A stretch of DNA of 64,000 nucleotides from Patescibacteria group bacterium (GTDB lineage Bacteria > Patescibacteriota > Doudnabacteria > UBA920), in assembly GCA_013387205.1 (NCBI GenBank), contig WARV01000010.1:765-64764 (forward strand). Reading direction: 5' to 3'. Of the stretch, positions 1,027-54,262 are shown piece by piece. The position numbers and the translations under genes are program-made. Numbering within the stretch: the stretch's first letter is position 1; each line of letters begins with the position of its first letter. The notes beneath the pieces were generated by a model. That model ran no database searches. It saw nothing but the letters and a program-made list of their open reading frames with translations, and had not been told where the DNA came from.

Positions 1027-1252
1027 TACAATCCTCCAACAAAATAGTCAACAAAAAAAGGGTTTTCACCCTAGTTTGTTGCCGAAGCAATGTTACAATT
1101 TTTTGGCTTATTTGTCAAGACTATTAAAGATTTTACGAAGTACTAATTTATGCGAACTTACGAATACCATCAAAACTGCTTATTTAATACAACTATTATA
1201 TATCTTCGTAAGTTCGTATCCGCCAGTTGGCGGAGTTCGTACTGGTAAAGAA

Positions 1253-5134: not shown

Positions 5135-5255
5135 TACCATACTTCTACTAAATACTAAAAGGTACTAAATATACTAAATCACATCAAATATACTTAATTG
5201 ATATCACTGCTAGTATATAGCTTTAGTATATTTAGTATTATTTCGTATTTAGTAG
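5135..5255. repeat. family A intergenic palindromic element (termini ctactaaatactaa / ttagtatttagtag)
   Basis: About 120 bp AT-rich element with perfect 14 bp terminal inverted repeats and internal complementary arms; fills the tkt/upstream-gene intergenic gap. Copies also at 18374, 18789, 19758, 32183 and 63707. Confidence 0.7.
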
Positions 5256-5260
5256 AGCTT

Positions 5261-6931
5261 TTAGTATCCGTTAATCCCAAACATGGATTTGGGCAATTCG
5301 AATTTGGAGATAATCCCCTGGTTTTGCTGGTTTCTTTTTAAAAAGACAATATTATAGCCATCCACGAACACCGGCGCCCATAACGGGTCATGAACCCGGC
5401 TGATTAGAAAGCTCTGCGCCCAAGGGGTAAAATCGCGGTGGGAAAAAATTATGACATTAAAATTTTCTTGTCTTTCCAGTTCCTGCCAGGCCTGCGCGTT
5501 ATCCTGGGCCGGGATATAGATTTTCTGCAAAAAATCCACGGAATAAGCTTCCGGGCGGTTATCAACGAAAACTTTTTCTTTGGGGAATAAATGGAAGATT
5601 AAATAACCGCCAATATCGTAGTCGTTAAAAATAGGGCCTTGAATATTATTTTGTTTGATAAATTCAGCCGAAGCATTCACGTAAGGCATTAAGCCAATTC
5701 CCATAGCCGAAGTCTTCTCGGAAAATTTCAGATAGTCGCGGTAGCCGCTGCCTAAAATAATAAGCAGGCAGATTGCAATAAAATACGCGTGACGAATATC
5801 AAGGGGTATCCTTGATCTGATCAAGGATGCCCCTTGATACAACGCATTGATGTTGTAGGCTAGAATAGGGATAATGAATAACCCGAAAAACGGAAAATTA
5901 CGGATGCCGAACACTGCCATCACCGAAACAATAAAAAAAATGGCAAACAGCGGCCAGGAAAATTTTTTCCTTTGGAAAAATATCACCAAAATAAAACTTA
6001 TAACCCCTATTGCCAGCACTGCTTTGAACAAAGAAAAATTCAACCCGGCCGTGTGGTTAAGCCTTTCCAAAAACCGGACGGACTGGTTTTCAACGACCAA
6101 GTAACCGTAGTTGTTAAAAATCTGCAAAGGATAGAGCGCGCCTTTAATGAAGTTAGGATTAACTAGCGCGGCTAAACCAGAGACTATACCAGTCAGCAAT
6201 AAATTCTTATCAAAAATTTCGTAAAAATCGCGGCCGCGATTTTTACGAAATCGGTTGTCTACCAGAGACCTTGTGGCACTGCTTACAAAAAACACAAAAA
6301 TCAGCAGCAAGCCCATAAAAAACCCGATGTGTAAGTTTACCCAAATAAGCATTAATACTGGCAATAAATACAACCATCGTTTTTTAGTTTTATCCGCGTT
6401 TATATCCGCGGCTGCAGTATCAGATCCGCGTGCAATCTGCGGATTATAATACACCCACAGCACAAAGAAAAATATCCCGGTAAAAAGATAGGTAAACATT
6501 TCCGGGCGCACTTCCGCGCGCGTGGCAAACAATGGCATAACCAAAACACTTGCAGCAATAGCTAAAAGCCAGCCGCCCATCTTTTTTGCCAGGAAAAAAT
6601 ACACGGCAAAAGTACTTATGCCGAGCAGGATGTAAAATGCTGACAGGCCGGAAAATCCCAAAATTTTCCATACCAGGAAAAACACCACCCCGCTCCCCCA
6701 GTGGTGGTTGATAAACGAAAAGCCAGGCTCAGTGTAGGAATAAAAATTTGTCTTAAAGATATTTTGAGAAAAACCGGAAAGTATAATTTCCCCATTCTTG
6801 ATATGCCTGCCCAAATCCGCGGTAGTCAAATCTATCTTCTGGGCAAAATAAAGCCCGCACCAAGACAATAGGATGATGACGCCTAAGATTTTAAGGATAT
6901 TTGATATTATTTTGGTTTTACTATTAGCCAT
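5261..6931 (-). CDS. polytopic membrane protein, glycosyltransferase family 39 / PMT_2 (ArnT-like) candidate
   Basis: 556 aa with many predicted TM helices N-terminally and a soluble C-terminal region. Carries an in-frame 42 bp nested palindrome at 5798..5839. Confidence 0.4.
   Translation of the reverse strand: MANSKTKIISNILKILGVIILLSWCGLYFAQKIDLTTADLGRHIKNGEIILSGFSQNIFKTNFYSYTEPGFSFINHHWGSGVVFFLVWKILGFSGLSAFYILLGISTFAVYFFLAKKMGGWLLAIAASVLVMPLFATRAEVRPEMFTYLFTGIFFFVLWVYYNPQIARGSDTAAADINADKTKKRWLYLLPVLMLIWVNLHIGFFMGLLLIFVFFVSSATRSLVDNRFRKNRGRDFYEIFDKNLLLTGIVSGLAALVNPNFIKGALYPLQIFNNYGYLVVENQSVRFLERLNHTAGLNFSLFKAVLAIGVISFILVIFFQRKKFSWPLFAIFFIVSVMAVFGIRNFPFFGLFIIPILAYNINALYQGASLIRSRIPLDIRHAYFIAICLLIILGSGYRDYLKFSEKTSAMGIGLMPYVNASAEFIKQNNIQGPIFNDYDIGGYLIFHLFPKEKVFVDNRPEAYSVDFLQKIYIPAQDNAQAWQELERQENFNVIIFSHRDFTPWAQSFLISRVHDPLWAPVFVDGYNIVFLKRNQQNQGIISKFELPKSMFGINGY
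5798..5839. repeat. 42 bp nested palindrome inserted in frame in the membrane protein gene
   Basis: Sequence atcaaggggtatccttgatc t gatcaaggatgccccttgata; encodes QGASLIRSRIPLDI. Confidence 0.65.
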
Positions 6932-6940
6932 GCCTGCAAA

Positions 6941-7072
6941 TTTCTAATTGACCTAATTAACCTAATTATTCTAAATAAATCCCAAAACCTAATGCCTAAT
7001 TTAGAAATTGGGAATTGGTGCTTGTTTAGGTTAATTAGAAATTAGAATAATTAGAATAATTTTAAATCCGCC
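6941..7072. repeat. family B intergenic low-complexity hairpin element (ctaatta / taggtta / attagaa words; terminus aattgacctaatta)
   Basis: Built from permuted short words arranged as imperfect inverted halves. Related copies at 43774, 44392, 45900, 48691, 51018, 52668 and 62843. Confidence 0.6.
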
Positions 7073-13080: not shown

Positions 13081-13116
13081 TTCCCGGAAAACGAGCGATC
13101 GCTCGTTTTCCGGGAA
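13081..13116. repeat. perfect 36 bp palindrome ttcccggaaaacgagcgatcgctcgttttccgggaa (CGATCG core)
   Basis: Read directly; lies 10 bp 3' of the PaaX-like gene stop. Confidence 0.8.
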
Positions 13117-13126
13117 TGGGTTGGTT

Positions 13127-13681
13127 TTAAAGTTTAAAAAATTTTTTTATATTTTCATCATTATCAATCTGGTCAATACGAAAGATGCGTATATATTCAT
13201 CCAAACCTGTCTCGTATAAATACCTAATCGCATCACGATTTAAAGGATAAGGGTTTATATACACACTTCTCTGGATTTGCAAAAACCCATGATTCTTTAA
13301 CAAAATTCTCAACAATCTTCTTTTATCTTTTGCCTTCTCCGGTATGTCAAAAACCACCATCCTAAATTTTCCATCCCATTTCTCAGGTTTCTTAATATCA
13401 GCCTTTAATAACAATGTTTCCAAAACACCCTTTTTTGTTAATTTAACATACTGATAACCTTTTTCTTTGAAAATTTTTATCCAATGCTTCTGCTCCAAGG
13501 TATTTAAGATATTCAAATAACTTTTATAAGGCACATAGCCTGAAACCTGACGCTTGAAAAATGCCGTTTTGCTTTCAAAAGGTCGTGGAAATAAATCTAC
13601 CACGGCAAATAACGTCAGCAATAACTTTGCTGAATTGGTCAGCTCTCTTTCTTGTGTATTGTATTTTTTTCTTTTTTTCAT
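13127..13681 (-). CDS. winged-HTH + PaaX_C/Cas2-like domain protein (PaaX-like family), paralog 1
   Basis: The C-terminal motif W-DGKFRMVVFDIPE...R..LR..L...GFLQIQRSV..NPYP matches the PaaX C-terminal (Cas2-like) domain. Paralogous to 29713..30261. Confidence 0.5.
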   Translation of the reverse strand: MKKRKKYNTQERELTNSAKLLLTLFAVVDLFPRPFESKTAFFKRQVSGYVPYKSYLNILNTLEQKHWIKIFKEKGYQYVKLTKKGVLETLLLKADIKKPEKWDGKFRMVVFDIPEKAKDKRRLLRILLKNHGFLQIQRSVYINPYPLNRDAIRYLYETGLDEYIRIFRIDQIDNDENIKKFFKL

Positions 13682-13702: not shown

Positions 13703-13738
13703 TTCCCGGATTTCGAGCGATCGCTCGTTTTCCGGGAA
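13703..13738. promoter_or_regulatory. 36 bp near-palindrome ttcccggatttcgagcgatcgctcgttttccgggaa, 22 bp upstream of the paralog-1 start codon (candidate operator)
   Basis: Same arms and core as 13081..13116 with an aaaa->attt change in one arm. Confidence 0.6.
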
Positions 13739-13795
13739 TTGGTTTTTATTTTGATAATTTTAAAAGCACTATCAAAATATGGTAGTGCTTTACTT

Positions 13796-18355: not shown

Positions 18356-18373
18356 AATATTTCTCCGAAATTT

Positions 18374-18456
18374 CTACTAAATACTAATTCTTACTAAAAG
18401 TACTAAATTTTACTTAAATGGCTTTCGTATCTTTAGTACATTTTCGTATTTAGTAG
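18374..18456. repeat. family A palindromic element in the groES-groEL intercistronic gap
   Basis: Termini ctactaaatactaa ... tatttagtagag. Joined to a conserved uucggagaaauAUG RBS segment. Confidence 0.7.
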
Positions 18457-18466
18457 AGATTATTAT

Positions 18467-18772: not shown

Positions 18773-18788
18773 AATTTCTCCGAAATCT

Positions 18789-18899
18789 CTACTAAATACT
18801 AAAAGGTACTAAATATACTAAAATATCATCAAAAAGGCTTAATTGATACCGCTATTGATTTTTGATTTAGTATCTTTAGTATTATTTCGTATTTAGTAG
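18789..18899. repeat. family A palindromic element in the groES 5' UTR
   Basis: Same termini as the other A copies. Confidence 0.7.
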
Positions 18900-18935
18900 A
18901 AGCATTAATTTTCCTAATTTATTTTATAGCAACAC

Positions 18936-19747: not shown

Positions 19748-19757
19748 CCTCTTCTCT

Positions 19758-19868
19758 CTACTAAATACTAAAAAGTACTAAACATACTAAAGCTATATAC
19801 CAGTATTGATATCAGTTAAGTCTATTTGATGATATTTAGTACATTTAGTATTAATTAGTATTTAGTAG
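19758..19868. repeat. family A palindromic element between convergent genes
   Basis: Termini ctactaaatactaa / ttagtatttagtag. Confidence 0.7.
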
Positions 19869-19879
19869 AAAGATTAGTA

Positions 19880-21230: not shown

Positions 21231-21305
21231 GGTTACAGATTACGAATAATTTACAGATGTACGGATTACGGATCTGTATATCTGTACAAAATCCGTAATC
21301 TTTAA
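21231..21305. repeat. family C palindromic element (ggttacagattacg ... cgtaatctttaacc)
   Basis: Inverted halves around gattacggatctgtatatctgtac. Second copy at 54119..54210. Confidence 0.6.
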
Positions 21306-32164: not shown

Positions 32165-32182
32165 GATAGTTCTTACATTCTC

Positions 32183-32294
32183 TACTAAATACTAATATAT
32201 ACGAAAGATACTAAAGCTTTATACTAATAGTGATATTAATTAAGTATACTTAGATGATATTTTAGTATATTTAGTACTAATTAGTATTTAGTAG
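32183..32294. repeat. family A palindromic element
   Basis: Termini ctactaaatactaa / ttagtatttagtag. Confidence 0.7.
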
Positions 32295-32299
32295 AAGTA

Positions 32300-32701
32300 T
32301 TAAAGGTTAGTGTTAATTTTTTCCAACTTCCATTCAATCTTGTCGCTGTTCTTTAACTGGTATTGTCCGGCTCCGACCGGCGCCAGCTGGCTGTTTATAT
32401 AAAAGGCCCAAAAGTTTTTGCCGTTTTCCGACATATTACCGTCAATGCCTATTACCATCTCCCCCAGGCCCTGATACGTCTTAGTCTGCACTTGGTGGGT
32501 ACTCTTTAACAAATCCAACGCAGTCGTTCCTTGTTTTACTGCATAATCAGGCTGGTTTAAATTTGAAGCCTGGACAGTCTGGTAAACCTTAATATCCTGG
32601 CTTTGCTGGCTGGTTTGGTTGCCGGGCTGCTTACTGCATCCAGCCGCTGCCAAAAAAATCAGTGATGATAATAAAAAAACCTTAAAGAAAGTTTTTCGCA
32701 T
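32300..32701 (-). CDS. DUF4430-domain lipoprotein (transcobalamin-like fold), tentative
   Basis: Signal peptide plus lipobox LAAAGC; C-terminal GKNFWAFYINSQLAPVGAGQYQLKNSDKIEWKL is typical of DUF4430. Confidence 0.5.
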   Translation of the reverse strand: MRKTFFKVFLLSSLIFLAAAGCSKQPGNQTSQQSQDIKVYQTVQASNLNQPDYAVKQGTTALDLLKSTHQVQTKTYQGLGEMVIGIDGNMSENGKNFWAFYINSQLAPVGAGQYQLKNSDKIEWKLEKINTNL

Positions 32702-32716
32702 AAAAATTGGTTATAT

Positions 32717-32850
32717 TACAACCAATCTACGAATCCATACTAATAATAACTAATGGCAACTAATCCTTACTAAGATAATATTAGCTGTCATTGGCAATAT
32801 TCGTTACATTAGTTGATTGGTTAATCTAATTGGCTATCTTATATTTTATA
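32717..32850. repeat. family F repeat (acgaatccatactaataataactaatg...)
   Basis: About 45 bp nearly identical to 47130..47250, then a divergent palindromic tail. Confidence 0.5.
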
Positions 32851-33489: not shown

Positions 33490-33887
33490 TTGTGTCATCC
33501 CGACCGAAGCGGAGGGATCCCTTGTCTTACATTTTTATATGATATTCCAACTTAGGCTCAAGTCTGCCCATTTAGGATTTAATTTTTTTATTAAAAATTC
33601 TTTCTTTTTTCTATTCCATCTTTTCAACTGCCTTTCCCTTGCAATAGCTGAATTTACATCTGATGTTTGTTCAAAATAAACTAACTAATGGCAACAATAT
33701 TTTTTTGTAAAACCATCAGCCACGTTATTTTTATGTTGCCATACCCGATTTGCCAAATCATTAGTAACTCCTGTATACAAAGTACCGCTTTCACTGGCTA
33801 AAATATAAATATAATATTGGTAATCTTTCATAGTTACTCATTATTTTATACATTAAGGGATCCCTCCGCTTCGGTCGGGATGACACA
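33490..33887. mobile_element. 398 bp element: perfect 33 bp terminal inverted repeats flanking a GIY-YIG nuclease pseudogene
   Basis: Left TIR tgtgtcatcccgaccgaagcggagggatccctt (33490..33522) is the exact reverse complement of 33855..33887. The element abuts the cobO ATG and the upstream gene's terminator. Confidence 0.55.
33578..33829 (-). pseudogene. GIY-YIG nuclease family (UPF0213-like) gene with one in-frame TAG
   Basis: Hand translation gives MKDYQYYIYILASESGTLYTGVTNDLANRVWQHKNNVADGFTKKYCCH*LVYFEQTSDVNSAIARERQLKRWNRKKKEFLIKN. The GIY...YTG and R-x3-QHK motifs are intact. TAG is a genuine stop here, since groEL ends with TAG. Confidence 0.6.
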
Positions 33888-42730: not shown

Positions 42731-42740
42731 AAGGTATAAT

Positions 42741-42832
42741 CCTAATGCCCCGAATTAGTATCCGAATGCCCCAAATAATTTCTTCCCTTTTCGGGTCATT
42801 TGGATAGAATTCGTAGATTCGGATTATATTAT
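42741..42832 (-). promoter_or_regulatory. family D conserved structured 5' UTR element upstream of ftsA
   Basis: About 90 nt element (ccgaat words; hairpin ccaaatga...tcatttgg; ends aattaggattATG). About 85% identical to 61501..61591 upstream of the ABC permease. Confidence 0.5.
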
Positions 42833-43615: not shown

Positions 43616-43773
43616 TAATATCACCTCTTTCTTTAGTATAGACCACTGATACGCAGATAATCGCAGATTACACAGATGCAGTTATCTGCGTCATCAGTGC
43701 AAATCTGTGTATCTGCGGTCTTATTTCTTACCTAACTATAATATATTTCCCGATTTTGGTCAAACGGAACGAG

Positions 43774-43917
43774 AATTAACCTAATTATTCTAATTTCTAA
43801 TTAACCTAAACAAATCCCAATTTCTAACTACCCAATTTCCTAATTTCTGATATTTTAGTCATTGGTTATTAGTCATTGTTTAGACTAATTAGGTCAATTA
43901 GGAATTAGGTTAATTTA
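43774..43917. repeat. family B intergenic element
   Basis: Words ctaatta / taggtta; terminus motif cctaattgacctaattag. Confidence 0.6.
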
Positions 43918-44391: not shown

Positions 44392-44542
44392 AATTCCTAA
44401 TTATTCTAATTGTTCTAATTGACCCCGGGTCAAGCCCGGGGCAGGCTCTAAATAATGTCTAATGACCCAATGTCTAAAATTTGGATATTAGGATTTAGGA
44501 TTTGTTTAGAAATTAGGTCAATTAGGTTAATTAGAAATTATC
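44392..44542. repeat. family B intergenic element with a GC hairpin core (ccccgggtcaagcccgggg)
   Basis: Read directly. Confidence 0.6.
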
Positions 44543-45899: not shown

Positions 45900-46045
45900 A
45901 TCAAATTCTAAATTCTAATATCTAAACTATAAACAATATTTAAACTCCAAATTTCAAAATTCAAAACTATAAAGTTTGGGAATTTGGATTTAGATATTTG
46001 AATTTGTTTAGAATTCAGGATTTAGAGTTTAGAAATTTTAATTTT
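45900..46045. repeat. family B-like variant element (aattctaaat / atttagaatt words)
   Basis: Imperfect inverted halves built from ttcaaaa / tttgaat words. Confidence 0.5.
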
Positions 46046-47129: not shown

Positions 47130-47250
47130 CTAATACAATTACTAATCAACGAATCCATACTAATAATAACTAATGACAGCTAATACTATCTTAAGTACGC
47201 ATTAGTTATCATTTGTTTTATTCGTTGCATTAGTAGATTAGTTAATCCAA
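47130..47250. repeat. family F repeat
   Basis: Shares acgaatccatactaataataactaatg with 32717..32850. Confidence 0.5.
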
Positions 47251-47265: not shown

Positions 47266-48693
47266 ATGACCAATCCAGACTTAAACAATAACCAGCCAAT
47301 TCGCCCGCCAAAAATTTCAGTAAGCAACACCGCCCAAGTCAGTTTGCTAAAAGGCCAGAAACAAAAACACGGGACCAGGAAAGCGCTTAAGCTTACTTTA
47401 TTGGCCATTTTGGCTGTTATTTTAATTTTGGGCGGAGTTGTTGCAAACCGGGCCGCTAACCTGTCGCAAAAAATCTTTGTCGGCCAAAAGATGACTTTTT
47501 TCCAAAAAATCAAGGATGTGTTTAAAGGAAGCGGCACAAAGCTGGTCGGAGAAGATTTGGGACAGATTAACGTCCTGCTCCTCGGGATCGGCGGCGAAGG
47601 CCACGACGGCCCATACCTTTCCGACACGATGATTTTGGCGCAAATCCGTCCTGATATCGGCCAGGTATCTTTAATTTCTATCCCCCGCGATTACCTGGTC
47701 CAGCTGCCGAACAATTTAGGCAGCAGGAAAATTAACGCGGCGTTTGCCGAAGGCTACTACAAAAATAAGGACTGGAACGAAGCCGGCACTTGGGCCAGGG
47801 AAGCCGTAGAAAAAGTCTCCGGCCAAAAAATCCCTTATTTCGCAGTGGTTGATTTTGCCGGTTTCGAAGATGCCGTCAATAAAGTTGGCGGCGTGGATGT
47901 TAACGTGGAAAGGGATTTTACCGACTACTCCTATCCCGATTCAAAAGACGGTTACTTGCCGCCAGTGACTTTTAAAAAAGGCTTGGAGCACATGGGTGGC
48001 ACGCGCGCTTTGCAGTTTGCCCGCTCCAGGCATGCGGCTGGCCCCGAAGGATCGGATTTTGCCCGCTCCCAGCGCCAGCAAAAAATCATACAGGCTTTCA
48101 AGGACAAAGCAATGAGCATGCAGACTTTGTCTGATCCTTCCAAAGTAAACGGACTGCTTGGAGTTTTTGCCGACCATTTCCACACCAATGTCAGTCCCGG
48201 GGAAATTTTCAGGATTTATAGCCTGGTTAAGGAACACGACATCCAAAATTTCATTTCCATCAGCCTGGATCCCACCACCAAACTCATCTGTCCGCAGATA
48301 CTGCCGGAGAACGGGGCTTACGTACTTACCCCGTGCCCGGGAAAAACAGACCAGGATATTAAAAACTATTTTGCCAATTCTTTTTCCATAGGAAAACTTT
48401 ACCAGGAAAAAAGCATAATCTGGATGTCTACAAGCAATCAGGACAAGGCAGCTTACCAAACAGCTGACCAGAAACTTAAAGACGCCGGGCTGACCGTCTG
48501 GGAACTGCCTTACAAAGGGCCAGTCCTATCGCAAAACGTTTTTTACCAAGCCAACATAAAGCCGGCAACTGCCGAGTTCATAAAGAACACGCTTGGTGCC
48601 ACCGAAGTCAACCTGCCTCCCCCAGGGATGAAAATTGACAAGAGCAAAGTAGATATTATTGTGATACTTGGAGGAGAAGAGCAGAAGAATTAA
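47266..48693 (+). CDS. LCP family protein (LytR-CpsA-Psr)
   Basis: N-terminal TM; LCP core NVLLLGIGGEG...SDTMILAQIRPD...ISIPRD. Confidence 0.85.
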   Translation: MTNPDLNNNQPIRPPKISVSNTAQVSLLKGQKQKHGTRKALKLTLLAILAVILILGGVVANRAANLSQKIFVGQKMTFFQKIKDVFKGSGTKLVGEDLGQINVLLLGIGGEGHDGPYLSDTMILAQIRPDIGQVSLISIPRDYLVQLPNNLGSRKINAAFAEGYYKNKDWNEAGTWAREAVEKVSGQKIPYFAVVDFAGFEDAVNKVGGVDVNVERDFTDYSYPDSKDGYLPPVTFKKGLEHMGGTRALQFARSRHAAGPEGSDFARSQRQQKIIQAFKDKAMSMQTLSDPSKVNGLLGVFADHFHTNVSPGEIFRIYSLVKEHDIQNFISISLDPTTKLICPQILPENGAYVLTPCPGKTDQDIKNYFANSFSIGKLYQEKSIIWMSTSNQDKAAYQTADQKLKDAGLTVWELPYKGPVLSQNVFYQANIKPATAEFIKNTLGATEVNLPPPGMKIDKSKVDIIVILGGEEQKN

Positions 48694-48905
48694 CCTAATT
48701 ATTCTAATTATTATTAACTCATCCTGTCCTTCTCTTTAGCAAAGAGAAGGAACCAGCTTAGCAAGGCTATAATCTAGCTTAGTATGTACTCCCTCTTTAT
48801 CATAAGAGGGAGACAGAGGGAGTTAGTATTAGGAATTAGGAATTGGGATTTGTTTAGTCCGCCAGCTGGCGGAAATTAGGTTAATTAGGTTAATTAGGTC
48901 AATTG
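48691..48905. repeat. composite family B element containing CTCCCTCTTT-loop-AAAGAGGGAG hairpins
   Basis: ctaatta word arms plus internal hairpins ccttctcttt-agca-aagagaagg and ctccctcttt-atcat-aagagggag-acagagggag. Related composites at 51018 and 52668 (the latter inverted). Confidence 0.6.
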
Positions 48906-48948
48906 TTATCAAAGAATTTTAAAGTAAATCATTAACATTATTCATCCC

Positions 48949-50286
48949 GTGTCTAAATCTATATTACCCATTGTCGCCATAGTCGGACAGCCGAACGTGG
49001 GAAAATCCACCCTATTAAACAAAGTTTCCGGAAAACAGATGGCAGTCACCTCCCCGCTTGCCGGCACCACCCGCGACCGCCAGTATTCGGACATTTCCTG
49101 GAACGAAGTAACATTTACCTTAGTCGATACCGCGGGAATAAACCCCCTGGCCAAAGACGAACTGGAACACAATTTGCACAAACAAGTTGACATTGCCATT
49201 GAGGAAGCGGATTTGATATTGCTCGTAGCTGACGGCAGGCTAAACAGGCTGTCTGTCGACCAATCAATAATCCAAAAACTCCGCCGCACCAAAAAACCGA
49301 TGGTCTTGGCATTGAACAAACTGGATTCGTCTAAAGCCTGGGAAGAAAAACTCGCGGAGTTTGCCGCTTTGGGCATAAAAAATGTTTTTCCCATCTCATC
49401 CATCAACGGGCGGGGCATTGGCGACATGCTGGATTTTGTGGCAAAACAGGTAGCCAAAACTTCCGAAGAAGAAGCTGTCTTGGAGGAAAACCAAAACGGC
49501 ATCGCTGTGGGGATTATCGGCAAACCCAATGTCGGCAAATCCAGCATCTTTAATGCCATTGTCAAAGAAGAGCGCGTGGTAGTCTCCCCTGTCCCCGGCA
49601 CGACCAGGACTGCCATTGACAGCCAGCTTGAAATTGAAGGCCAGCCTTACACTTTTATAGACACGGCCGGGCTGAAAAAGAAAACTTACCGCCAGGCCCA
49701 GGCTGACACTTACGGCGGCTTCCAGACTTTTAAAACCATCAGGCGATCCGACGTCTGCTTTTTGGTTATTGATTCCATAGAAGAAATAACCAAGCAGGAC
49801 CAGCGCGTGGCGCAGGAAATCTTCTCCCTGGAAAAAGGGATTATCATTTTGGCCAACAAGATAGATCTGTTCCGCGGAGACAAAGAAAAACTGCGCGACT
49901 ACGTCAGCATGCATTTTCCGTTTTTATGGATGTGCCCCATGTTCTTAGTTTCCGGAAAGAACGGAGAAGGATTAGAAGAAGCCCTGGCAGCAATAAAGCC
50001 GATTTTTGAATCCAGGAACAAGCAGGTCGACAACCAGGCTTTGAGCGAATTTTTGTCCAAAAAAATCAAGCACAATCCGCCCAAACTCTTGCGCGACCAA
50101 AAAAAGCCAAAAGTATTTTCTTTGCACCAGGTTAATGCCAATCCCCCAACCTTTGAACTGTTAGTCAACCATCCGGCAGCAATTTCGCAACAGTTCAGGA
50201 AATATATTGAAAACTCCATTATAAAAGACTTAGATTTCTGGGGAACACCGATAATCCTAAAACTTAAAGGAAAAGATAAAACATAA
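48949..50286 (+). CDS. der: ribosome-associated GTPase Der (EngA)
   Basis: Two G domains (GQPNVGKSTL, GKPNVGKSSIFN) plus a KH-like C-terminus. Confidence 0.9.
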   Translation: MSKSILPIVAIVGQPNVGKSTLLNKVSGKQMAVTSPLAGTTRDRQYSDISWNEVTFTLVDTAGINPLAKDELEHNLHKQVDIAIEEADLILLVADGRLNRLSVDQSIIQKLRRTKKPMVLALNKLDSSKAWEEKLAEFAALGIKNVFPISSINGRGIGDMLDFVAKQVAKTSEEEAVLEENQNGIAVGIIGKPNVGKSSIFNAIVKEERVVVSPVPGTTRTAIDSQLEIEGQPYTFIDTAGLKKKTYRQAQADTYGGFQTFKTIRRSDVCFLVIDSIEEITKQDQRVAQEIFSLEKGIIILANKIDLFRGDKEKLRDYVSMHFPFLWMCPMFLVSGKNGEGLEEALAAIKPIFESRNKQVDNQALSEFLSKKIKHNPPKLLRDQKKPKVFSLHQVNANPPTFELLVNHPAAISQQFRKYIENSIIKDLDFWGTPIILKLKGKDKT

Positions 50287-50307
50287 AAGTTATCCATACC
50301 ACACAAT

Positions 50308-50346
50308 ACAAAGAGACTCTTCGCTCAGAGCGAAGAGTCTCTTTGT
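50308..50346 (+). terminator. family E perfect 16 bp-stem terminator acaaagagactcttcgct-cagag-cgaagagtctctttgt
   Basis: Near-identical copy with a different loop at 60166..60203. Confidence 0.65.
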
Positions 50347-50484
50347 ATGCGATGCAAAAAATTACAGACCAATCTTCGGTTGGCCCATTTGTAATCAAAA
50401 TGAATTATTTGTTATAATTATTCTACAAACAAACCTTTCAGCGTTAATATCCGCGTAGCTGATCCGCGTTAAGATCAGAGGAAC

Positions 50485-51027
50485 ATGAAACTCATTGTCG
50501 GTTTAGGAAATCCGGGAACAAAATACGAACACACCCGCCACAACGCGGGCTTTTTGGCGATTGACGAATATTTGAAAGACGTCCAAAGCATTAATTGCCA
50601 AAGCAGCTTTAAGTCGCAGGTCTGCGAATTGCATTTTGGCAGCAATAAAATTTTCTTTGTAAAGCCCCAAACCTTCATGAATTTATCCGGTGAGGCAATT
50701 GCCGAAATTGCCAATTTTTATAAAGTTGATATTGCCAAAGACCTGTTAGTCATCCACGATGAAGTTGACTTGCCGTTCGGTACCATAAGAGCCACCGATT
50801 CCTCTTCTTCCGCCGGACATAACGGCGTACAAAATATTATCGACAAATTAGGAACGCAAAATTTTCACAGAATAAGAATTGGCGTGGAATCAAGGACAGA
50901 GGAAGACATGACGCCGACAGACGCTTTTGTCTTGCAAAATTTCACAGACGAAGAAACAAAAAAACTCCAGGAAGAAATCTTTCCCAAAGTTAAGGTTGAG
51001 ATAGAGCGGTTTATAAAATTGACCTAA
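50485..51027 (+). CDS. pth: peptidyl-tRNA hydrolase
   Basis: MKLIVGLGNPGTKYEHTRHNAGF. Confidence 0.9.
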   Translation: MKLIVGLGNPGTKYEHTRHNAGFLAIDEYLKDVQSINCQSSFKSQVCELHFGSNKIFFVKPQTFMNLSGEAIAEIANFYKVDIAKDLLVIHDEVDLPFGTIRATDSSSSAGHNGVQNIIDKLGTQNFHRIRIGVESRTEEDMTPTDAFVLQNFTDEETKKLQEEIFPKVKVEIERFIKLT

Positions 51028-51200
51028 TTATTATTAACTCATCCTGTCCTGCTCTTTGCTAAAGAGAAGGGACATATTAAGAAAGATTTGTAAATGATTA
51101 ACAGATAAACTATCTTAGCATGTTCTCCCTCTTTGTCTAAAGAGGGAGACAGAGGGAGTTGATATTAGAAATTGGGATTTGTTTAGAATAATTTTAAACC
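51018..51200. repeat. composite family B element; its aaattgacctaatta terminus overlaps the pth stop codon
   Basis: Same internal hairpins as 48691..48905. Confidence 0.6.
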
Positions 51201-51562
51201 GCCCTTACAAAAATAAAAAAAACTTTCCATCAACGAATGAAAGGAAAGATTTCAATGTTTACACCCAGTACCCTACTTGCAAGTGAAAGGCTGGAGACAA
51301 TCGCCTTCAAACCTTTGCTTGATGCTAAGAGCAAGTAATAGGAGGGATGATACCTGCTTTCGCAACTTGCATGTAGGATACTAGATATAAGCTTATAACA
51401 AAGTACCATTTAATACTTTACCTATAAGTATACTCCTTTTTTGGCATTTTGTCAACCCCGTTAGAAAGCGCTTTAATTATAAGGCTTTTAGTCAATATTT
51501 GATTAATATCTAATACCTAGGCTTTCTAACGGGGCCAAGGAGTGCTTAAATAACTTAAACAT

Positions 51563-52669
51563 ATGGTTTCCGAGCCCTCAAAAGAGGCCCTTTGCCTCCA
51601 CACCCTGAATTTATTGCCAGAACTAGGACCAACAAGGCTAAAGGCTTTAAAAAACCGCTTTGAGAACTTTTCTAATGCGTTTTCAGCTTCTTTTAACGAT
51701 TTTATTGATATCGGCTTTGAAAAAACACTGGCTGAAAAAATCACCACGCACCTAAAACAGGCTGATTTGGAAAAAGAAGTGCGAATTTTGTCTGGCGAGA
51801 ATATCAATCTGCTCCCTTTTTGGGACGAGCGCTTCCCCGAACTGCTTTTGGAAATTCCTAAATTCCCTGCATTGCTTTATTATAAAGGAATTATGGAAGA
51901 GCCGGACGAGCTTTGCGTGGCCTGCGTGGGGACAAGGATGATTTCCAATTATGGCCGTATAGTCACCCCCAATATTTTAGACCCTCTTATCGATGCCGGT
52001 GTTACAATTGTTTCCGGCATGGCTTATGGCGTGGACGCGCTGGCCCACCAAAGAACCATAGAAAGAAATAAAAGGACTATTGCGGTTTTGGGCGGAGGGC
52101 TAGACAGCAAAAGCATTTACCCGCGGAACCACGCACTGCTGGCGGAAAGGATTTTGGAATGCGGCGGCGCCATTGTATCCGAATACCCTCCGGGAACACC
52201 GAACTTTAAGCAGCATTTTGTGGCGCGCAACCGGATTATTTCCGGACTCAGCGTTGGAACAATTGTTATTGAATGCGATTTGCAAAGCGGCACGCTGATT
52301 ACCGCCAAGCACGCCCTGGACCAGAACCGTGCGGTTTACGCCGTGCCCGGGCCAATTTATTCCGAAACCAGCAAAGGGCCGAACAACTTAATTAAAATGG
52401 GCGCCAAGCTAATAACCGAGGCTAAGGATATTTTGGATGATTTGAATTTAGAGAATTTGCCCGAAGCCAAACAGAACCAGATGATTTTCGGAGACTCCCC
52501 TGCTGAGACCGCCGTGATAAAAATATTATCTTTTGAACCGCTGCACATTGACGAGCTGGTCAAGCAATCCGGCCTGGAAGCTGGCGAAGTTTCTTCAACG
52601 CTTGTCTTTTTGGAAATGAAAGGAAAAGTCAGAAACCTCGGCGGCCAGCAATATATATTGAGTAGGTAA
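51563..52669 (+). CDS. dprA: DNA processing protein DprA (Smf)
   Basis: Rossmann-like core GMAYGVDALAHQ...AVLGGGLD...ISGLS; C-terminal wHTH. Confidence 0.85.
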   Translation: MVSEPSKEALCLHTLNLLPELGPTRLKALKNRFENFSNAFSASFNDFIDIGFEKTLAEKITTHLKQADLEKEVRILSGENINLLPFWDERFPELLLEIPKFPALLYYKGIMEEPDELCVACVGTRMISNYGRIVTPNILDPLIDAGVTIVSGMAYGVDALAHQRTIERNKRTIAVLGGGLDSKSIYPRNHALLAERILECGGAIVSEYPPGTPNFKQHFVARNRIISGLSVGTIVIECDLQSGTLITAKHALDQNRAVYAVPGPIYSETSKGPNNLIKMGAKLITEAKDILDDLNLENLPEAKQNQMIFGDSPAETAVIKILSFEPLHIDELVKQSGLEAGEVSSTLVFLEMKGKVRNLGGQQYILSR

Positions 52670-52900
52670 ATTGACCTAATTAACCTAATTATTCCTAATT
52701 TCCGCCAGCTGACGGACTAAACAAATCCCAAATCCCAATTCCTAATACTAACTCCCTCTGCCTCCCTCTTTAGAAAAGAGGGAGGACATACTAAGAAAGG
52801 TTGGCTGATATATATCAATAAATCTTACTTAGCAAGTTCCTTCTCTTATTCTTAAGAGAAGGGCAGGATGAGTTAATAATTAGGAATAATTAGGTTAATT
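52668..52900. repeat. composite family B element (inverted relative to the previous two); its terminus abuts the dprA stop
   Basis: Read directly. Confidence 0.6.
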
Positions 52901-52916
52901 CTGATACGATATAAAC

Positions 52917-54101
52917 ATGAAACGATACAACTTACTCAAAATATTTCTCCCTATTCTTTTCGTCATCGCCTTAATATTGGGTTTTATCCAGCATAAAGCC
53001 GATCCGTATCTGGGGCAAAACCGCTACGAAATAAAAAATTCTCCTTCCCAAAGCCAGGGAGACGAATTTCAGTATTACATCAACAAAGCCAATGAACTGG
53101 CCGGAAAAAACAACAGCGAAACCACGGCCAGTTTTTTAGCAGTCGGCGACATTATGCTTTCGCGCAACGTGGCGGGCACAATCAAAAAAGCGAATGACCC
53201 ACTATTGCCTTTTTCCAGAATGGCGGATGAATTAAAAGCCGTGGATTTTTCCGTGGGAAATTTGGAATCACCCATGTCAGGAAGCGAGTACTTTAACCCT
53301 TCGGGTACAATGGTTTTTAACATGCCTACGGCTAACATTAAAGGCCTTGTTGATTATAATTTCAAGCTGGTGACCTTAGCCAACAACCACGCGCTTGACC
53401 AGGGATTAAAGGGTCTGGAATTTACCAAAAAATTTCTGGCTGGTAATAACATTAAAGCTGTCGGGGCGGGAAAAAATTTAAATGAAGCCTGGCAGCCTGC
53501 GGTTGTCGAGCAAAACGGCATTAAAATCTGTTTTCTTGGCGTATCTTACGCTTCTGTTAACGACAACGGCAAAACAACAAACGATTACGTCGCGAGGATT
53601 GAGGATATTGAAAATTTAAAATCGAAAATTGAAAATTTAAAATCGCTATGCGATTTTACTGCTGTCCTAATGCACGCGGGAACCGAATACACCACCAAAC
53701 CCAACCAGGTGCAAGAAAATTTTGCCCATGCCGCAATTGACGACGGGGCAGACATGGTTATTGGCAGCCACCCGCATTGGGTCCAAAGCGTGGAAAAGTA
53801 TAATGGCAAATATATTTTTTATTCTTTAGGAAATTTTATATTTGACCAGGAATGGTCCAAGGAAACCAAAGAAGGATTGGTTTTGAAGATAACATTAAAA
53901 TCAAGCAAACAAAAAAACCCGACTATTGGCGGTGCGGCAAGCCTGGATGATTTGCAGGGTACCAGGATAAAAGCGACTCTGGAGAATATAGACCTTATTC
54001 CGGTTATAATTGAAAATTACAGCACGCCAAGGCCGGCAAACCAGGAAGAAACAAAAAGTATTTTGGACAAAATCGGCATTACGCAAAACCCCTTAAAATA
54101 A
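52917..54101 (+). CDS. CapA family protein (poly-gamma-glutamate synthesis / metallophosphatase-like)
   Basis: FLAVGDIMLSR, ANNHALDQG and GSHPHWVQ motifs; contains an exact 21 bp tandem duplication (IENLKSK x2) at 53607..53648. Confidence 0.8.
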   Translation: MKRYNLLKIFLPILFVIALILGFIQHKADPYLGQNRYEIKNSPSQSQGDEFQYYINKANELAGKNNSETTASFLAVGDIMLSRNVAGTIKKANDPLLPFSRMADELKAVDFSVGNLESPMSGSEYFNPSGTMVFNMPTANIKGLVDYNFKLVTLANNHALDQGLKGLEFTKKFLAGNNIKAVGAGKNLNEAWQPAVVEQNGIKICFLGVSYASVNDNGKTTNDYVARIEDIENLKSKIENLKSLCDFTAVLMHAGTEYTTKPNQVQENFAHAAIDDGADMVIGSHPHWVQSVEKYNGKYIFYSLGNFIFDQEWSKETKEGLVLKITLKSSKQKNPTIGGAASLDDLQGTRIKATLENIDLIPVIIENYSTPRPANQEETKSILDKIGITQNPLK

Positions 54102-54118: not shown

Positions 54119-54210
54119 TCGATGACAGTTAAGGATTACAACCGACTAAGGATTACAGATAATTTACAGATATGCGGATTACGGATCTGTATATCCGTAA
54201 AAGATTAGTA
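54119..54210. repeat. family C palindromic element
   Basis: gattacagataatttacagatatgcggattacggatctgtatatccgtaa...taatctgtaacc; second copy at 21231..21305. Confidence 0.6.
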
Positions 54211-54262
54211 ATCTGTAACCATAAAAAAGAGGGCGACACAAAGGCCGCCCTGTACTATCCGG

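What the first reader, a model, noticed from the sequence alone, without database searches (positions are those of the whole stretch)
48691..52900. Composite family B elements separate every gene in the der / pth / dprA / capA run, with termini overlapping stop codons
200-240 bp composites (ctaatta word arms plus two CTCCCTCTTT-loop-AAAGAGGGAG hairpins) lie at 48691, 51018 and 52668; the third is inverted. The conserved terminus aaattgacctaatta supplies or overlaps the TAA stops of pth and dprA. Simpler family B elements are at 6941, 43774, 44392, 62843 and a variant at 45900. This is a dispersed element that repeatedly lands at, or creates, gene ends.
Basis: seen in the sequence. Interest (0 to 1): 0.55.

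Follow-up and report, generated by a model that had tools for sequence, protein, structure and literature searches.

The report
Palindromic IVS-like elements between genes
The repeats between these housekeeping genes are gene-less copies of a hairpin-shaped insertion element found throughout the Patescibacteria (CPR), whose complete form carries a small four-helix-bundle gene of the kind known from ribosomal-RNA intervening sequences, so an obscure rRNA curiosity looks like one face of a widespread, apparently undescribed genomic parasite.

Summary
Three related composites lie at 48688-48904, 51017-51193 and 52669-52900 (inverted). Simpler copies lie at 6939-7061, 43774-43915, 44392-44539 and 62838-62974. 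The shared terminus is far beyond chance. The der|pth spacer has no copy. The dprA stop is native; the pth and LytR stops lie inside the element's first word.

The element is not private to this genome. Its 21-nt terminus hits more than 117 loci, almost all in Patescibacteria. In about 90 loci the same arms enclose a 120-aa PF05635/TIGR02436 four-helix-bundle gene. The arms are CTAATT hexamers at 9- or 7-nt spacing, inverted on the two sides. Profiles of those full-length ends hit every window copy, so the window copies are ORF-less derivatives.

Related genomes have empty orthologous sites. One ORF-less copy sits in a 16S rRNA helix loop, as a classical intervening sequence would. Full-length copies are almost always co-oriented with their neighbours; ORF-less ones are not.

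Best reading: a selfish IVS-like hairpin cassette and its MITE-like relics, tolerated between operon genes. Mobility and RNase III processing are inferred, not shown. Four-helix-bundle genes on plasmids from other phyla show the same word-arm architecture.

The parts
48688..48904 (+). Composite copy B1 (217 bp), lying between the LytR stop and der. Its layout is: left word arm 48688-48712; nested module 48713-48826 (its 22-nt inverted termini at 48715-48736 and 48804-48825); B right half 48827-48857 (ATTGGGATTTGTTTAG); small GC hairpin TCCGCCAGCTGGCGGA at 48858-48873; right word arm 48874-48904.
   Evidence: Sequence; alignment A1; terminus search; RNA fold -80.6 kcal/mol, z -6.9; nhmmer hits from full-length element ends, E 1e-6 to 3e-5.
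51017..51193 (+). Composite copy B2 (177 bp), directly after pth. Its arms are short: left AATTGACCTAATTATT, right AGAATAATT. It carries the same nested module as B1.
   Evidence: 3'-end profile hit at 51164-51194, E 0.006.
52669..52900 (-). Composite copy B3 (232 bp), inverted relative to B1 and B2. It lies between the dprA stop and capA; the capA ATG follows 16 nt later.
   Evidence: (I2: 84 nt, 92% complementary to B1); fold -81.9 kcal/mol, z -9.6, with a 23-bp outer stem; nhmmer E 6e-7 and 4e-6.
48691..48693 (+). LytR_cpsA_psr stop codon TAA, lying inside the first word of B1 (aatTAAcc). Window LytR lacks about 50 C-terminal residues that its orthologues have.
51016..51027 (+). The last three pth codons plus the stop: AAA TTG ACC TAA (K-L-T-stop). 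The last two codons and the stop are encoded by the terminal word of B2.
   Evidence: The L120 orthologue ends FIKNS*, which is the same length.
52667..52669 (+). dprA stop codon TAA. It is native and shares only its last A with B3.
   Evidence: Orthologues without the element end ...SR-TAA.
6939..7061 (.). Simple (ORF-less) family B copy, 7 nt upstream of the start codon of the minus-strand gene 5261-6931.
   Evidence: E 3e-12 and 6e-12.
43774..43915 (.). Simple family B copy in the convergent spacer next to the HIT gene.
   Evidence: E 2e-14.
44392..44539 (.). Simple family B copy on the other side of the HIT gene. It carries an inserted GC hairpin (ccccgggtcaagcccgggg).
   Evidence: E 6e-13.
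62838..62974 (+). Simple family B copy that fills a whole spacer. It retains CTAAATAATGTCTAAT, the remnant of the four-helix-bundle start codon, and carries the TCCGCCAGCTGGCGGA hairpin. The stop of the gene at 62974-63690 (-) abuts its terminal word.
   Evidence: E 2e-12.
45900..46045 (.). Diverged palindrome built on TCTAAAT/ATTTAGA words. It is only weakly related to family B.
   Evidence: 3'-end profile E 0.04.

Best explanation
Family B copies are ORF-less, MITE-like derivatives of a hairpin-bounded insertion cassette that is spread through the Patescibacteria.

Structure of the full-length cassette (about 450-500 bp):
- A left arm of 3-5 CTAATT words. Each word is an invariant hexamer plus a variable RNY triplet, at 9-nt or sometimes 7-nt spacing.
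- A sub-terminal repeat, CTAAAyAAATCCCAAT, that contains the start codon.
- A ~120-aa basic four-helix-bundle protein (PF05635 / TIGR02436). This is the family encoded in 23S rRNA intervening sequences and related to the DGR protein Avd.
- The mirror-image arm, ATTGGGATTTGTTTAG followed by AATTAG words.

Behaviour, as shown:
- The cassette lies in transcribed DNA, between the stop and start codons of neighbouring genes or in an rRNA helix loop.
- Empty sites carry a native AATT(AA) motif at the insertion point.
- Because the first word holds TAA or TGA in two of three frames, a copy that clips a gene's 3' end immediately restores a stop.

Behaviour, as inferred:
- In the transcript the arms pair. 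As in rRNA intervening sequences, the element is probably a removable or neutral stem-loop and a likely RNase III substrate. That would explain why it is tolerated inside operons.
- The four-helix-bundle protein probably binds the word arrays and serves the element's own maintenance or spread.
- Internal deletion leaves orientation-indifferent relics such as those in this window.

The three composites are one such relic that acquired a nested second palindrome and then multiplied locally.
For: Homology to the full-length cassette:
- Profiles built from the 5' and 3' ends of 81 full-length elements from other genomes hit every window copy (E 1e-14 to 1e-5). They hit nothing else in the 64 kb apart from the weak variant near 45987-46039 (E 0.04). 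The matches reach about 30 nt into the ORF.

The ORF and its arms:
- The ORF sits exactly between the arms in 13 GTDB loci.
- Among metagenome loci, 51 of 78 have at least 3 words on each side. In the pooled set, 64 of 81 have at least 2 on each side.
- Protein identity: PF05635 (E 1e-9), TIGR02436 (E 1e-17 to 1e-19), PDB 2RLD.
- dN/dS is about 0.17 and dS is mostly saturated, yet the arm hexamers stay invariant.

Distribution:
- More than 117 genome loci match the terminus. Of the 80 listed, 69 are named as CPR lineages from many classes.

Insertion polymorphism:
- In L120, the LytR|der spacer is 8 nt and the dprA|capA spacer is 23 nt.
- L014 versus L164 shows one full-length and one ORF-less filled/empty pair. 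The empty site reads aaaATTAATTAAAATATG.
- Different full-length elements align only across arms plus ORF (~500 nt); their flanks are unrelated.

rRNA copy:
- L075 carries an ORF-less copy in a 16S helix loop. It folds as one hairpin continuing the helix, -88.5 kcal/mol, z -13.

Orientation:
- Full-length copies are co-oriented with both neighbours in 53 cases and antisense in 2. ORF-less copies split 29:22.

Flank geometry:
- The stop lies a median of -1 nt from the edge and the start a median of +9 nt.

Local spread of the composite:
- Its nested-module termini occur only in B1-B3 and not in 120 other loci.

Literature analogue:
- rRNA IVS have inverted termini, an S23p ORF and RNase III excision (PMC4990558).
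- CPR rRNA insertions include 23S_rRNA_IVP ORFs and short uncharacterised ORF-less inserts (PMC11270868).
Against: - No four-helix-bundle gene lies in the 64-kb window. Dependence of these copies on that protein is untested.
- The protein family has no known catalytic activity, and no transposase, recombinase or nuclease is associated with the element.
- No flanking target-site duplication exceeds chance. A palindromic AATT duplication would be invisible.
- Arms of ORF-less copies are not more complementary to each other than to arms of other copies.
- RNA folding shows no strand bias relative to transcription. RNA-level selection is therefore not demonstrated outside the rRNA copy.
- RNase III cleavage rests purely on analogy.
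- Some orthologous sites keep a copy across about 70% nucleotide divergence (L077/L088). This could also mean a host-beneficial role.
Confidence: 0.6

Rival explanations
1. These are ordinary MITEs mobilised in trans by an unseen conventional transposase, for example an IS with the same word termini or a Y1/RAYT-type enzyme acting on hairpins. On this reading the four-helix-bundle gene is only a frequent passenger.
For: - The elements have terminal inverted arms, are multi-copy and show insertion polymorphism.
- Sub-terminal arrays of repeated binding-site-like words are typical of transposon ends such as Tn7, Mu and CACTA elements (established knowledge).
- The protein family has no known enzymatic activity.
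Against: - Every long element found (430-500 bp) carries the four-helix-bundle ORF and nothing else.
- The start codon lies inside the sub-terminal repeat, and the N-terminal codons continue the word array.
- The same ORF-plus-word-arm architecture recurs with different words in other phyla. That is hard to explain for a passenger gene.
- No transposase was seen next to any copy in about 1.1 Mb of loci, although this was not searched systematically.
Confidence: 0.2
2. This is a host cis-element kept by selection. The arrays would be binding sites for a nucleoid or transcription protein, or a portable promoter or terminator serving SD-less or leaderless genes. It would not be selfish DNA.
For: - The hexamer and its spacing are conserved across the phylum while synonymous sites are saturated.
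- Start codons follow the outer word (…TAGAAATT) by a median of 9 nt, with no Shine-Dalgarno sequence.
- Some sites are conserved between genomes with about 70% nucleotide identity.
Against: - The element is absent from orthologous spacers of syntenic relatives, where the genes keep 8-23-nt spacers.
- Copies lie in both orientations.
- The distribution across co-directional, convergent and divergent spacers (54/8/3) mirrors the background (460/82/67), with no excess upstream of genes.
- One copy lies inside a 16S rRNA gene.
- A coding form exists.
- The promoter scan finds nothing in the termini.
Confidence: 0.12
3. The palindromes are generated in place in each spacer, by slippage of short words plus hairpin-templated repair. 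They would then be convergent products, not homologous insertions.
For: - Nearly every spacer in the window holds some word-built palindrome, with different words in different spacers.
- Word order within the arms is combinatorial.
Against: - Family B copies share non-repetitive sub-terminal sequence and the ORF-start remnant with elements in unrelated genomes (E down to 1e-14).
- The three composites share identical module junctions.
- Filled and empty sites have clean boundaries.
Confidence: 0.05
4. The arms are guide-RNA arrays of the CRISPR or TIGR-Tas type.
For: - The arrays have a short period and occur in CPR genomes.
- TIGR arrays are reported in CPR and use 9-nt spacers (PMC12045711).
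Against: - There is no 36-nt unit of two alternating 8-12-nt repeats.
- Only 3 variable bases lie between the hexamers, and these come from a small vocabulary (AAC, ATT, GAC, GCT).
- The arrays are paired in inverted orientation and dispersed among spacers.
- The neighbouring genes are LytR, Der, Pth, DprA and CapA, not a Nop-domain gene.
Confidence: 0.01

Closest known systems
rRNA intervening sequences (IVS) carrying an S23p / 23S_rRNA_IVP ORF (Leptospira, Coxiella; PMC4990558)
   Same: - The encoded protein family is the same (PF05635 / TIGR02436).
- Both have inverted termini that form a long stem enclosing the ORF.
- Both are inserted in transcribed DNA and distributed sporadically, in a way that suggests horizontal spread.
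- One ORF-less family B copy replaces the loop of a 16S rRNA helix (L075), exactly as an IVS does.
   Different: - Nearly all copies, and all those in this window, lie between protein-coding genes rather than in rRNA.
- The termini are arrays of tandem words rather than a unique 28-bp stem.
- ORF-less derivatives are abundant.
- RNase III excision is not shown here.
Transcribed palindromic MITEs of enterobacteria and Neisseria (ERIC/IRU; Correia/CREE, PMC2649163)
   Same: - Both are 100-230-bp imperfect palindromes in intergenic parts of operons, found in either orientation.
- Both have size variants caused by internal insertions.
- Both are co-transcribed with flanking genes.
- Correia elements are known RNase III targets and can alter expression.
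   Different: - There is no sequence relation.
- No TA duplication is detected.
- The longer partner element encodes a four-helix-bundle protein, not a transposase.
- The termini are built of 9- or 7-nt words conserved across a whole phylum.
Heptamer tandem arrays of cyanobacteria (STRR-type) and Xanthomonas GGGAATC arrays, including 70-75 convergent pairs (PMC4692102)
   Same: - Both are short tandem words in intergenic DNA, often as facing inverted arrays, with unknown function.
- Four-helix-bundle genes on Nostoc, Planktothrix and Gloeocapsa plasmids are flanked by exactly such inverted heptamer arrays.
   Different: - The word and period differ: 7 nt and G-rich there, against CTAATT+3 here.
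- The cited paper does not mention any link to four-helix-bundle genes. That link is my observation on nine plasmid loci, not an established result.
Avd, the accessory protein of diversity-generating retroelements
   Same: Avd has a homologous four-helix-bundle fold family (PMC10053308). It is small and basic, and it binds nucleic acid together with a partner enzyme.
   Different: No reverse transcriptase and no template or variable repeats lie next to the cassettes examined.
TIGR arrays of TIGR-Tas systems (PMC12045711)
   Same: Both are short-period arrays found in CPR genomes.
   Different: TIGR arrays have 36-nt units with two alternating repeats and 9-nt variable spacers, and they lie next to a Nop-domain gene. 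None of this is present here.

Membership tests
rRNA intervening sequence (IVS) with S23p ORF | Inserted in the loop of an rRNA helix | tested here: not met
   All window copies lie between protein-coding genes. A related ORF-less copy in L075 does sit in a 16S helix loop.
rRNA intervening sequence (IVS) with S23p ORF | Complementary termini that form an extended stem-loop | tested here: met
   B1 has an outer stem of 14+7 bp and B3 one of 23 bp, with z -6.9 and -9.6. The L075 copy has z -13.
rRNA intervening sequence (IVS) with S23p ORF | Encodes a PF05635 four-helix-bundle protein (in ORF-bearing IVSs) | tested here: not met
   tblastn finds no such ORF in the window. Full-length relatives elsewhere do carry it, and the window copies match their ends.
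rRNA intervening sequence (IVS) with S23p ORF | Excised from the transcript by RNase III | not testable with these tools
   This needs transcript end-mapping or an in-vitro cleavage assay.
MITE | Small, non-coding, multi-copy element with terminal inverted repeats | tested here: met
   Seven clear copies (three composite, four simple) of 123-232 bp plus one weak variant lie in 64 kb, all with inverted word arms.
MITE | Presence/absence polymorphism at orthologous sites | tested here: met
   L120 has empty LytR|der and dprA|capA spacers. L014 and L164 give filled/empty pairs. These comparisons are between genomes only about 65-78% identical, not between strains.
MITE | Target-site duplication | tested here: inconclusive
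   Flanking direct repeats of 2-8 nt are no more frequent than in permuted pairs. The termini are AATT, and empty sites contain AATT(AA), so a palindromic AATT duplication cannot be seen or excluded.
MITE | Derived from an autonomous element that encodes a transposase and has the same termini | tested here: not met
   The longer partner with the same termini encodes only a TIGR02436 four-helix-bundle protein. No transposase domain was found in it.
REP/BIME (REPIN-RAYT) | 20-40-nt GC-rich imperfect palindromes, singly or in pairs | tested here: not met
   The elements are 123-232 bp, AT-rich, and built of CTAATT words.
REP/BIME (REPIN-RAYT) | A cognate RAYT (Y1 transposase) gene flanked by the repeats | not tested
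   The rest of the genome is not available. Not every window ORF was scanned.
TIGR array (TIGR-Tas) | Tandem ~36-nt units of two alternating 8-12-nt repeats with 9-nt spacers | tested here: not met
   The spacing is 9 nt (278 cases) or 7 nt (90 cases), with a 6-nt constant part and a 3-nt part drawn from a small vocabulary. The arrays are inverted pairs.
TIGR array (TIGR-Tas) | An adjacent Nop-domain tas gene | tested here: not met
   The neighbours are LytR, Der, Pth, DprA and CapA.
Any Rfam RNA family | A covariance-model match | tested here: not met
   Nothing but two tRNAs reaches gathering score in the window. In 48600-53000 only chance-level matches appear at E up to 10.

The most novel reading that the evidence does not exclude
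The TIGR02436/PF05635 four-helix-bundle gene, together with its two inverted arrays of short tandem words, may be a self-contained, pan-bacterial mobile cassette of a new kind. It would carry no transposase, recombinase or nuclease. The small basic protein would bind the word arrays and drive, or safeguard, the element's spread through transcribed DNA.

On this reading, several things would be manifestations or relics of one element class:
- classical rRNA intervening sequences;
- the short uncharacterised insertions in CPR rRNA genes;
- cyanobacterial STRR-type inverted heptamer arrays;
- the convergent GGGAATC arrays of Xanthomonas;
- the CPR family B palindromes in this window.
Probability: 0.25. 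Interest if true: 0.85.

Novelty: new variant of a known kind. Interest (0 to 1): 0.66.

Why it matters
- **CPR intergenic DNA.** Patescibacteria have tiny genomes with minimal spacers, yet here a large share of the intergenic DNA is one element family. That family is conserved across classes whose housekeeping proteins are only 40-65% identical. This bears on how these genomes are transcribed, how operon mRNAs are processed, and how DNA moves between CPR lineages.

- **The protein family.** The S23p / four-helix-bundle protein has had no assigned function since it was found in rRNA intervening sequences. It now has a concrete, testable partner: the CTAATT-type word arrays that flank it in about 80% of the CPR loci examined. 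Analogous heptamer arrays flank it in other phyla.

- **Annotation.** Gene callers will assign these genomes C-terminal residues (for example KLT*) and stop codons that actually come from an insertion. rRNA pipelines will meet the same element inside 16S genes.

- **Older puzzles.** If the generalisation holds, it offers an origin for several long-unexplained intergenic repeat classes.

Tried and rejected
1. **Known structured RNA.** Rfam gave no family match, either at gathering score for the window or at E up to 10 for 48600-53000.
2. **Window contig and close strains.** The Pth and DprA look-ups found no record. The nearest DprA relatives are only 65-67% identical, so strain-level empty-site analysis was impossible.
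3. **Target-site duplication.** None was found above chance.
4. **Arm complementarity in ORF-less copies.** Cognate arms pair no better than non-cognate ones, and in fact pair worse. The sample was selected on one arm, which biases this test.
5. **Strand asymmetry of folding (G-U versus A-C) relative to transcription.** There is none: 26:26 for ORF-less copies and 39:38 for full-length ones. RNA-level and DNA-level roles therefore could not be separated.
6. **Preference for a spacer type.** After choosing the longer flanking ORF, the distribution matches the background. An initial apparent excess of convergent sites was an artefact of my first classification.
7. **Promoter reading of TTGACC.** The sigma-70 scan found nothing in the termini.
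8. **Phage carriage.** Neither pattern occurs in IMG/VR.
9. **Composite inner module elsewhere.** It is absent from 120 loci and from viral contigs.
10. **TIGR-Tas arrays.** Rejected on anatomy.
11. **Co-variation of word type with protein lineage.** This is only suggestive. The AATGAC-type words occur in GC-richer contigs, so host composition is confounded with lineage.
12. **Literature.** Eight searches found no description of these CPR elements, and none linking four-helix-bundle genes to flanking word arrays. The library is incomplete, so prior description cannot be excluded.

Full report
**1. What is in the window**

Pfam confirms LytR_cpsA_psr (47266-48693), Der/EngA (48949-50286), Pth (50485-51027), DprA (51563-52669) and a PGA_cap/CapA protein (52917-54101), all on the + strand.

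Three composite repeats lie at 48688-48904 (B1), 51017-51193 (B2) and 52669-52900 (B3, inverted). They align at 78% mean column identity. B1 and B3 share an 84-nt stretch that is 92% complementary.

Simple copies lie at 6939-7061, 43774-43915, 44392-44539 and 62838-62974. A weakly related palindrome lies near 45900-46045.

The terminus pattern AATTRACCTAATTAWYCTAAT occurs 12 times at up to 2 mismatches, against none in 100 dinucleotide shuffles. The low-complexity artefact that would have refuted the finding is therefore excluded.

Three points of the observation need correcting.
- The der|pth spacer holds no family B copy, only a GC-rich hairpin at 50309-50345 that recurs at 60167-60202.
- The two 'CTCCCTCTTT' hairpins are not identical. 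They are the two arms of a nested ~110-nt palindromic module whose 22-nt inverted terminus, TAACTCMYCCTGYCYYYCTCTT, occurs six times in the window. That is twice in each composite and nowhere else.
- B2 is complete but has only one or two words per arm.

**2. Stop codons**

- The LytR TAA (48691-48693) lies inside B1's first word, aatTAAcc.
- The pth TAA (51025-51027) lies inside aaATTGACCTAA, so Pth ends K-L-T-stop.
- The dprA TAA (52667-52669) shares only its last A with B3.

Syntenic loci from relatives with about 65% protein identity settle which stops are native.
- DprA ends ...GGQQY(I/V)(L/T)SR-TAA in all three genomes, with or without the element. That stop is native.
- Pth of L120 ends ...FIKNS*, against ...FIKLT* in the window. 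The length is the same, but the last two codons and the stop are element sequence.
- Window LytR stops six residues after the last conserved block, whereas its orthologues run about 50 residues further. This is compatible with truncation by B1, but it does not prove it.

**3. The elements are insertions**

In L120 the LytR|der spacer is 8 nt and the dprA|capA spacer is 23 nt (agaTAAaattaacattcaattttaatataATG). In L118 the same spacers hold a different repeat family.

A second syntenic pair, L014 and L164 (71-78% nucleotide identity), gives two clean filled/empty comparisons.
- Where L164 has a 471-nt full-length element, L014 has 43 nt. The upstream ORF ends ...DLLAKSS* in the empty genome and ...RNKLT* in the filled one, with its stop in AAATTAACCTAA.
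- Where L014 has a 158-nt ORF-less copy, L164 has aaaATTAATTAAAATATG. Both ORFs end ...PIKIN-TAA, and the native AATTAA coincides with the element's first word.

Empty sites thus carry AATT(AA), which suggests either a target preference or microhomology. I found no flanking duplication above chance, but an AATT duplication would be hidden inside the palindromic termini.

**4. The family spans the Patescibacteria**

I estimate that the 21-nt terminus should occur only a few times by chance in the 596-Gb GTDB collection. Of the 80 listed, 69 are named as CPR lineages: Saccharibacteria, Roizman-, Levy-, Curtiss-, Ames-, Gottesman-, Yanofsky-, Staskawicz-, Azam-, Doudna-, Falkow-, Nealson- and Berkelbacteria. 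Six are unclassified. There are no hits in IMG/VR.

The anatomy is the same everywhere.
- Arms are built of an invariant CTAATT hexamer plus a variable RNY triplet (AAC 83, ATT 62, GAC 41, GCT 21). The spacing is 9 nt in 278 cases and 7 nt in 90.
- Next comes CTAAAyAAATCCCAAT, then a variable centre, and then the mirror image.
- The median length is 130 nt.

**5. The full-length form**

In 13 of those loci the centre is a ~120-aa ORF. Its ATG lies inside the sub-terminal repeat (CTAAAnAATG) and its stop is followed at once by ATTGGGATTTATTTAG and the AATTAG words. The ORF is PF05635 (23S rRNA intervening-sequence protein) and TIGR02436 (four helix bundle protein). Its nearest solved relative is 2RLD.

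A metagenome scan found at least 575 relatives.
- Of the 78 best loci, 51 have at least 3 CTAAT words upstream and at least 3 ATTAG words downstream.
- In the pooled set, 64 of 81 have at least 2 on each side.

The protein is basic (pI 8.2-9.5) and under purifying selection. dN/dS is about 0.17 where dS is measurable, and dS is saturated for most pairs. The non-coding hexamers nevertheless stay invariant, which implies constraint on the arms.

Different full-length elements align over about 500 nt, covering arms plus ORF only, and their flanks are unrelated.

Profile HMMs of the two ends of 81 full-length elements hit every family B copy in the window (E 1e-14 to 1e-5). They hit nothing else apart from the weak variant near 45987-46039 (E 0.04). 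The matches extend about 30 nt into the ORF. For example, 62838-62974 retains CTAAATAATGTCTAAT.

The window itself has no such ORF. Its copies are therefore ORF-less derivatives. The three composites are one derivative that gained a nested palindrome and then multiplied within 4.2 kb, since they share junctions and the module is private to them.

**6. Link to rRNA intervening sequences**

In L075 (Staskawiczbacteria) a 149-nt ORF-less copy replaces the apical loop of a 16S rRNA helix. This shows as a 186-nt insert at Rfam model position ~187-190. It folds as one long hairpin continuing that helix, at -88.5 kcal/mol and z -13.

This is the defining geometry of bacterial IVSs. Those have inverted termini, may carry an S23p ORF, and are cut out by RNase III (PMC4990558). 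A survey of CPR rRNA insertions reported 23S_rRNA_IVP ORFs in both 16S and 23S genes. It also reported many short ORF-less, non-intron inserts of unknown nature (PMC11270868). The present family gives at least some of those a name, and shows that the same element mostly lives between protein genes.

**7. Clues to how it works**

- Elements fill the spacer. The upstream stop lies a median of -1 nt from the edge, and 37 of 58 lie at or inside the element. Recurring positions are -11 (AATTGACCTAA), -6 (AATTAA) and -1. The downstream start follows by a median of 9 nt, without a Shine-Dalgarno sequence.
- The spacer-type distribution (54 co-directional, 8 convergent, 3 divergent) matches the background (460/82/67).
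- ORF-less copies lie in either orientation (29:22). The window itself shows this, with B3 inverted.
- Full-length copies are co-oriented with both neighbours in 53 cases and antisense in 2. The upstream neighbour is on the same strand in 71 of 79 cases (p 1e-13). Orientation therefore matters only when the ORF is present, which fits a promoter-poor gene that depends on read-through transcription.
- Cognate arms of full-length elements pair better than non-cognate arms (-32.4 against -28.4 kcal/mol, p 0.001). Arms of ORF-less copies do not, as expected for decaying relics. The ORF-less sample was selected on one arm, which biases that comparison.
- Folding shows no strand bias, so RNA-level and DNA-level roles cannot be separated here.
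- The window composites do fold strongly, with 21-23-bp outer stems.

**8. Explanation I commit to**

Shown:
- Family B is homologous to the ends of a four-helix-bundle cassette.
- It is gained and lost at orthologous sites.
- It can sit in rRNA.
- Its terminal word supplies stops.

Inferred:
- In transcripts the arms form a stem that makes the insert removable or harmless, as in IVSs. RNase III is the likely nuclease.
- The protein binds the phased hexamer arrays and serves the element.
- ORF-less copies arise by internal deletion.

The movement chemistry is unknown. I put 0.6 on the whole statement. Within that, I put about 0.9 on the homology and insertion part, and about 0.35 on protein-dependent mobility and RNase III processing.

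**9. Rivals**

- A conventional MITE with an unseen transposase and the four-helix-bundle gene as passenger (0.2). Against this, the ORF is the only cargo ever seen, its start is built into the repeat, and the architecture recurs with other words in other phyla.
- A host regulatory module (0.12). Against this are the empty orthologous sites, the two orientations, the rRNA copy and the negative promoter scan.
- In-situ generation of palindromes (0.05). This is contradicted by the shared non-repetitive sequence.
- TIGR- or CRISPR-like arrays (0.01). The anatomy does not fit.

**10. Beyond CPR**

I examined nine annotated 'four helix bundle protein' genes on plasmids of Nostoc (two), Planktothrix, Pseudanabaena, Gloeocapsa, Chlorohelix, Chondrinema, Bernardetia and Treponema.

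All nine are co-oriented with their neighbours and flanked by arrays of 7-nt words, mostly inverted. The clearest examples are:
- Nostoc flagelliforme: AATTCAA x4 / TTGAATT x4, 31 nt and 100% complementary.
- Nostoc punctiforme: GTCGGAR / YTCCGAC.
- Planktothrix: AATCCCC + AATCGTA / TACGATT.
- Gloeocapsa: TTTAGAT / ATCTAAA.

Several are wedged inside operons: between an RND adaptor and its permease, between a helicase and a methylase, and between DUF1156 and a HEPN gene.

Heptamer arrays of this kind are described as unexplained repeats (PMC4692102). They include 70-75 convergent pairs in Xanthomonas. That paper makes no mention of four-helix-bundle genes.

Nine loci are a lead, not a survey. 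This is the basis of the 'novel case'.

**11. Novelty and score**

As a kind of thing, a palindromic insertion in transcribed spacers or an IVS, this is known. Three features appear new. I found no description of any of them in eight literature searches.
- The word-array termini.
- The phylum-wide conservation.
- The pairing with a four-helix-bundle gene outside rRNA, together with MITE-like relics.

I rate it a new variant of a known kind, with interest 0.66.

Noticed in passing
window 51262-51384, minus strand (pth|dprA spacer); also L118 ~4556-4680 and L120 ~4660-4790: A conserved ~125-nt structured sequence lies in the same spacer in three syntenic genomes. It has a long closing helix and a conserved loop, GGUAUCAUCCCUCCUAUUAC. 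On the minus strand it is followed by a hairpin plus a T-run. RNAalifold gives -61.7 kcal/mol on the minus strand against -34.5 on the plus strand. There is no Rfam match at E up to 10. It is a candidate unannotated small RNA.
   Followed up: partly
window 5139-5257, 18371-18461, 18784-18905, 19753-19873, 32177-32300, 63708-63805 (TACTAAA words); 21231-21304 and 54147-54220 (GATTACGGAT/CTGTA words); 42736-42813 and 61497-61574 (CCGAATGCCCC words); 32721-32830 and 47141-47250 (ACTAAT words); 43650-43718 (CGCAGAT words): Nearly every intergenic spacer of the window holds some imperfect palindrome built of short tandem words, with a different word in each family. Family B is only one of at least five such families. 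I did not test whether the others derive from other four-helix-bundle cassette lineages. Some metagenome cassettes do use AATGACGA, CTAATCTC or CTAAATCC words.
   Followed up: partly
window 33494-33884: This is a second 'small ORF inside a palindrome' cassette. A GIY-YIG nuclease gene (Pfam E 9e-14) on the minus strand is interrupted by an in-frame TAG. It is bounded by perfect 28-nt inverted repeats, GTCATCCCGACCGAAGCGGAGGGATCCC. ORF-less repeats with similar termini (cgtcatcctgag...gacgaaggatctc) occupy the LytR|der and dprA|capA spacers of relative L118.
   Followed up: partly
L075 6412-6600 (Candidatus Staskawiczbacteria, MHPA01000032.1): A 149-nt ORF-less CTAATT-word element is inserted in the apical loop of a 16S rRNA helix. 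It folds as a continuous extension of that helix (z -13). The helix sequence CCAAAACTTnnnnAGTTTTGG appears on both sides of the insert.
   Followed up: yes
L201-L209 (plasmids of Nostoc, Planktothrix, Pseudanabaena, Gloeocapsa, Chlorohelix, Chondrinema, Bernardetia, Treponema): Annotated 'four helix bundle protein' genes outside the CPR are also flanked by arrays of 7-nt tandem words, mostly inverted. They sit co-directionally between operon genes: RND adaptor|permease, helicase|N6-methylase, DUF1156|HEPN, and upstream of cas1.
   Followed up: partly
window 1220-1233, 48859-48872, 52702-52715, 62933-62946; L088: A small GC-rich palindrome, TCCGCCAGCTGGCGGA (containing CAGCTG), recurs as an inserted module between the sub-terminal repeat and the word arm of family B copies. 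It also occurs inside a different word family near window position 1220, and in a family B copy of another genome (L088).
   Followed up: no
window 50309-50345 and 60167-60202: The same GC-rich hairpin, CAAAGAGACTCTTCGC-loop-GCGAAGAGTCTCTTTG, follows der and also follows a gene 10 kb away. It may be a shared terminator-like module.
   Followed up: no
window 13081-13116 and 13703-13739: A 36-nt perfect palindrome, TTCCCGGAAAACGAGCGATCGCTCGTTTTCCGGGAA, and a close copy flank the gene at 13127-13681 on both sides.
   Followed up: no
many CPR loci, e.g. L117, L109, L027, L089; window 52901-52919: Start codons that follow the elements have no Shine-Dalgarno sequence. They sit 0-20 nt after an A/T-rich outer word (…TAGAAATT). 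This suggests SD-independent or near-leaderless initiation in these lineages.
   Followed up: partly
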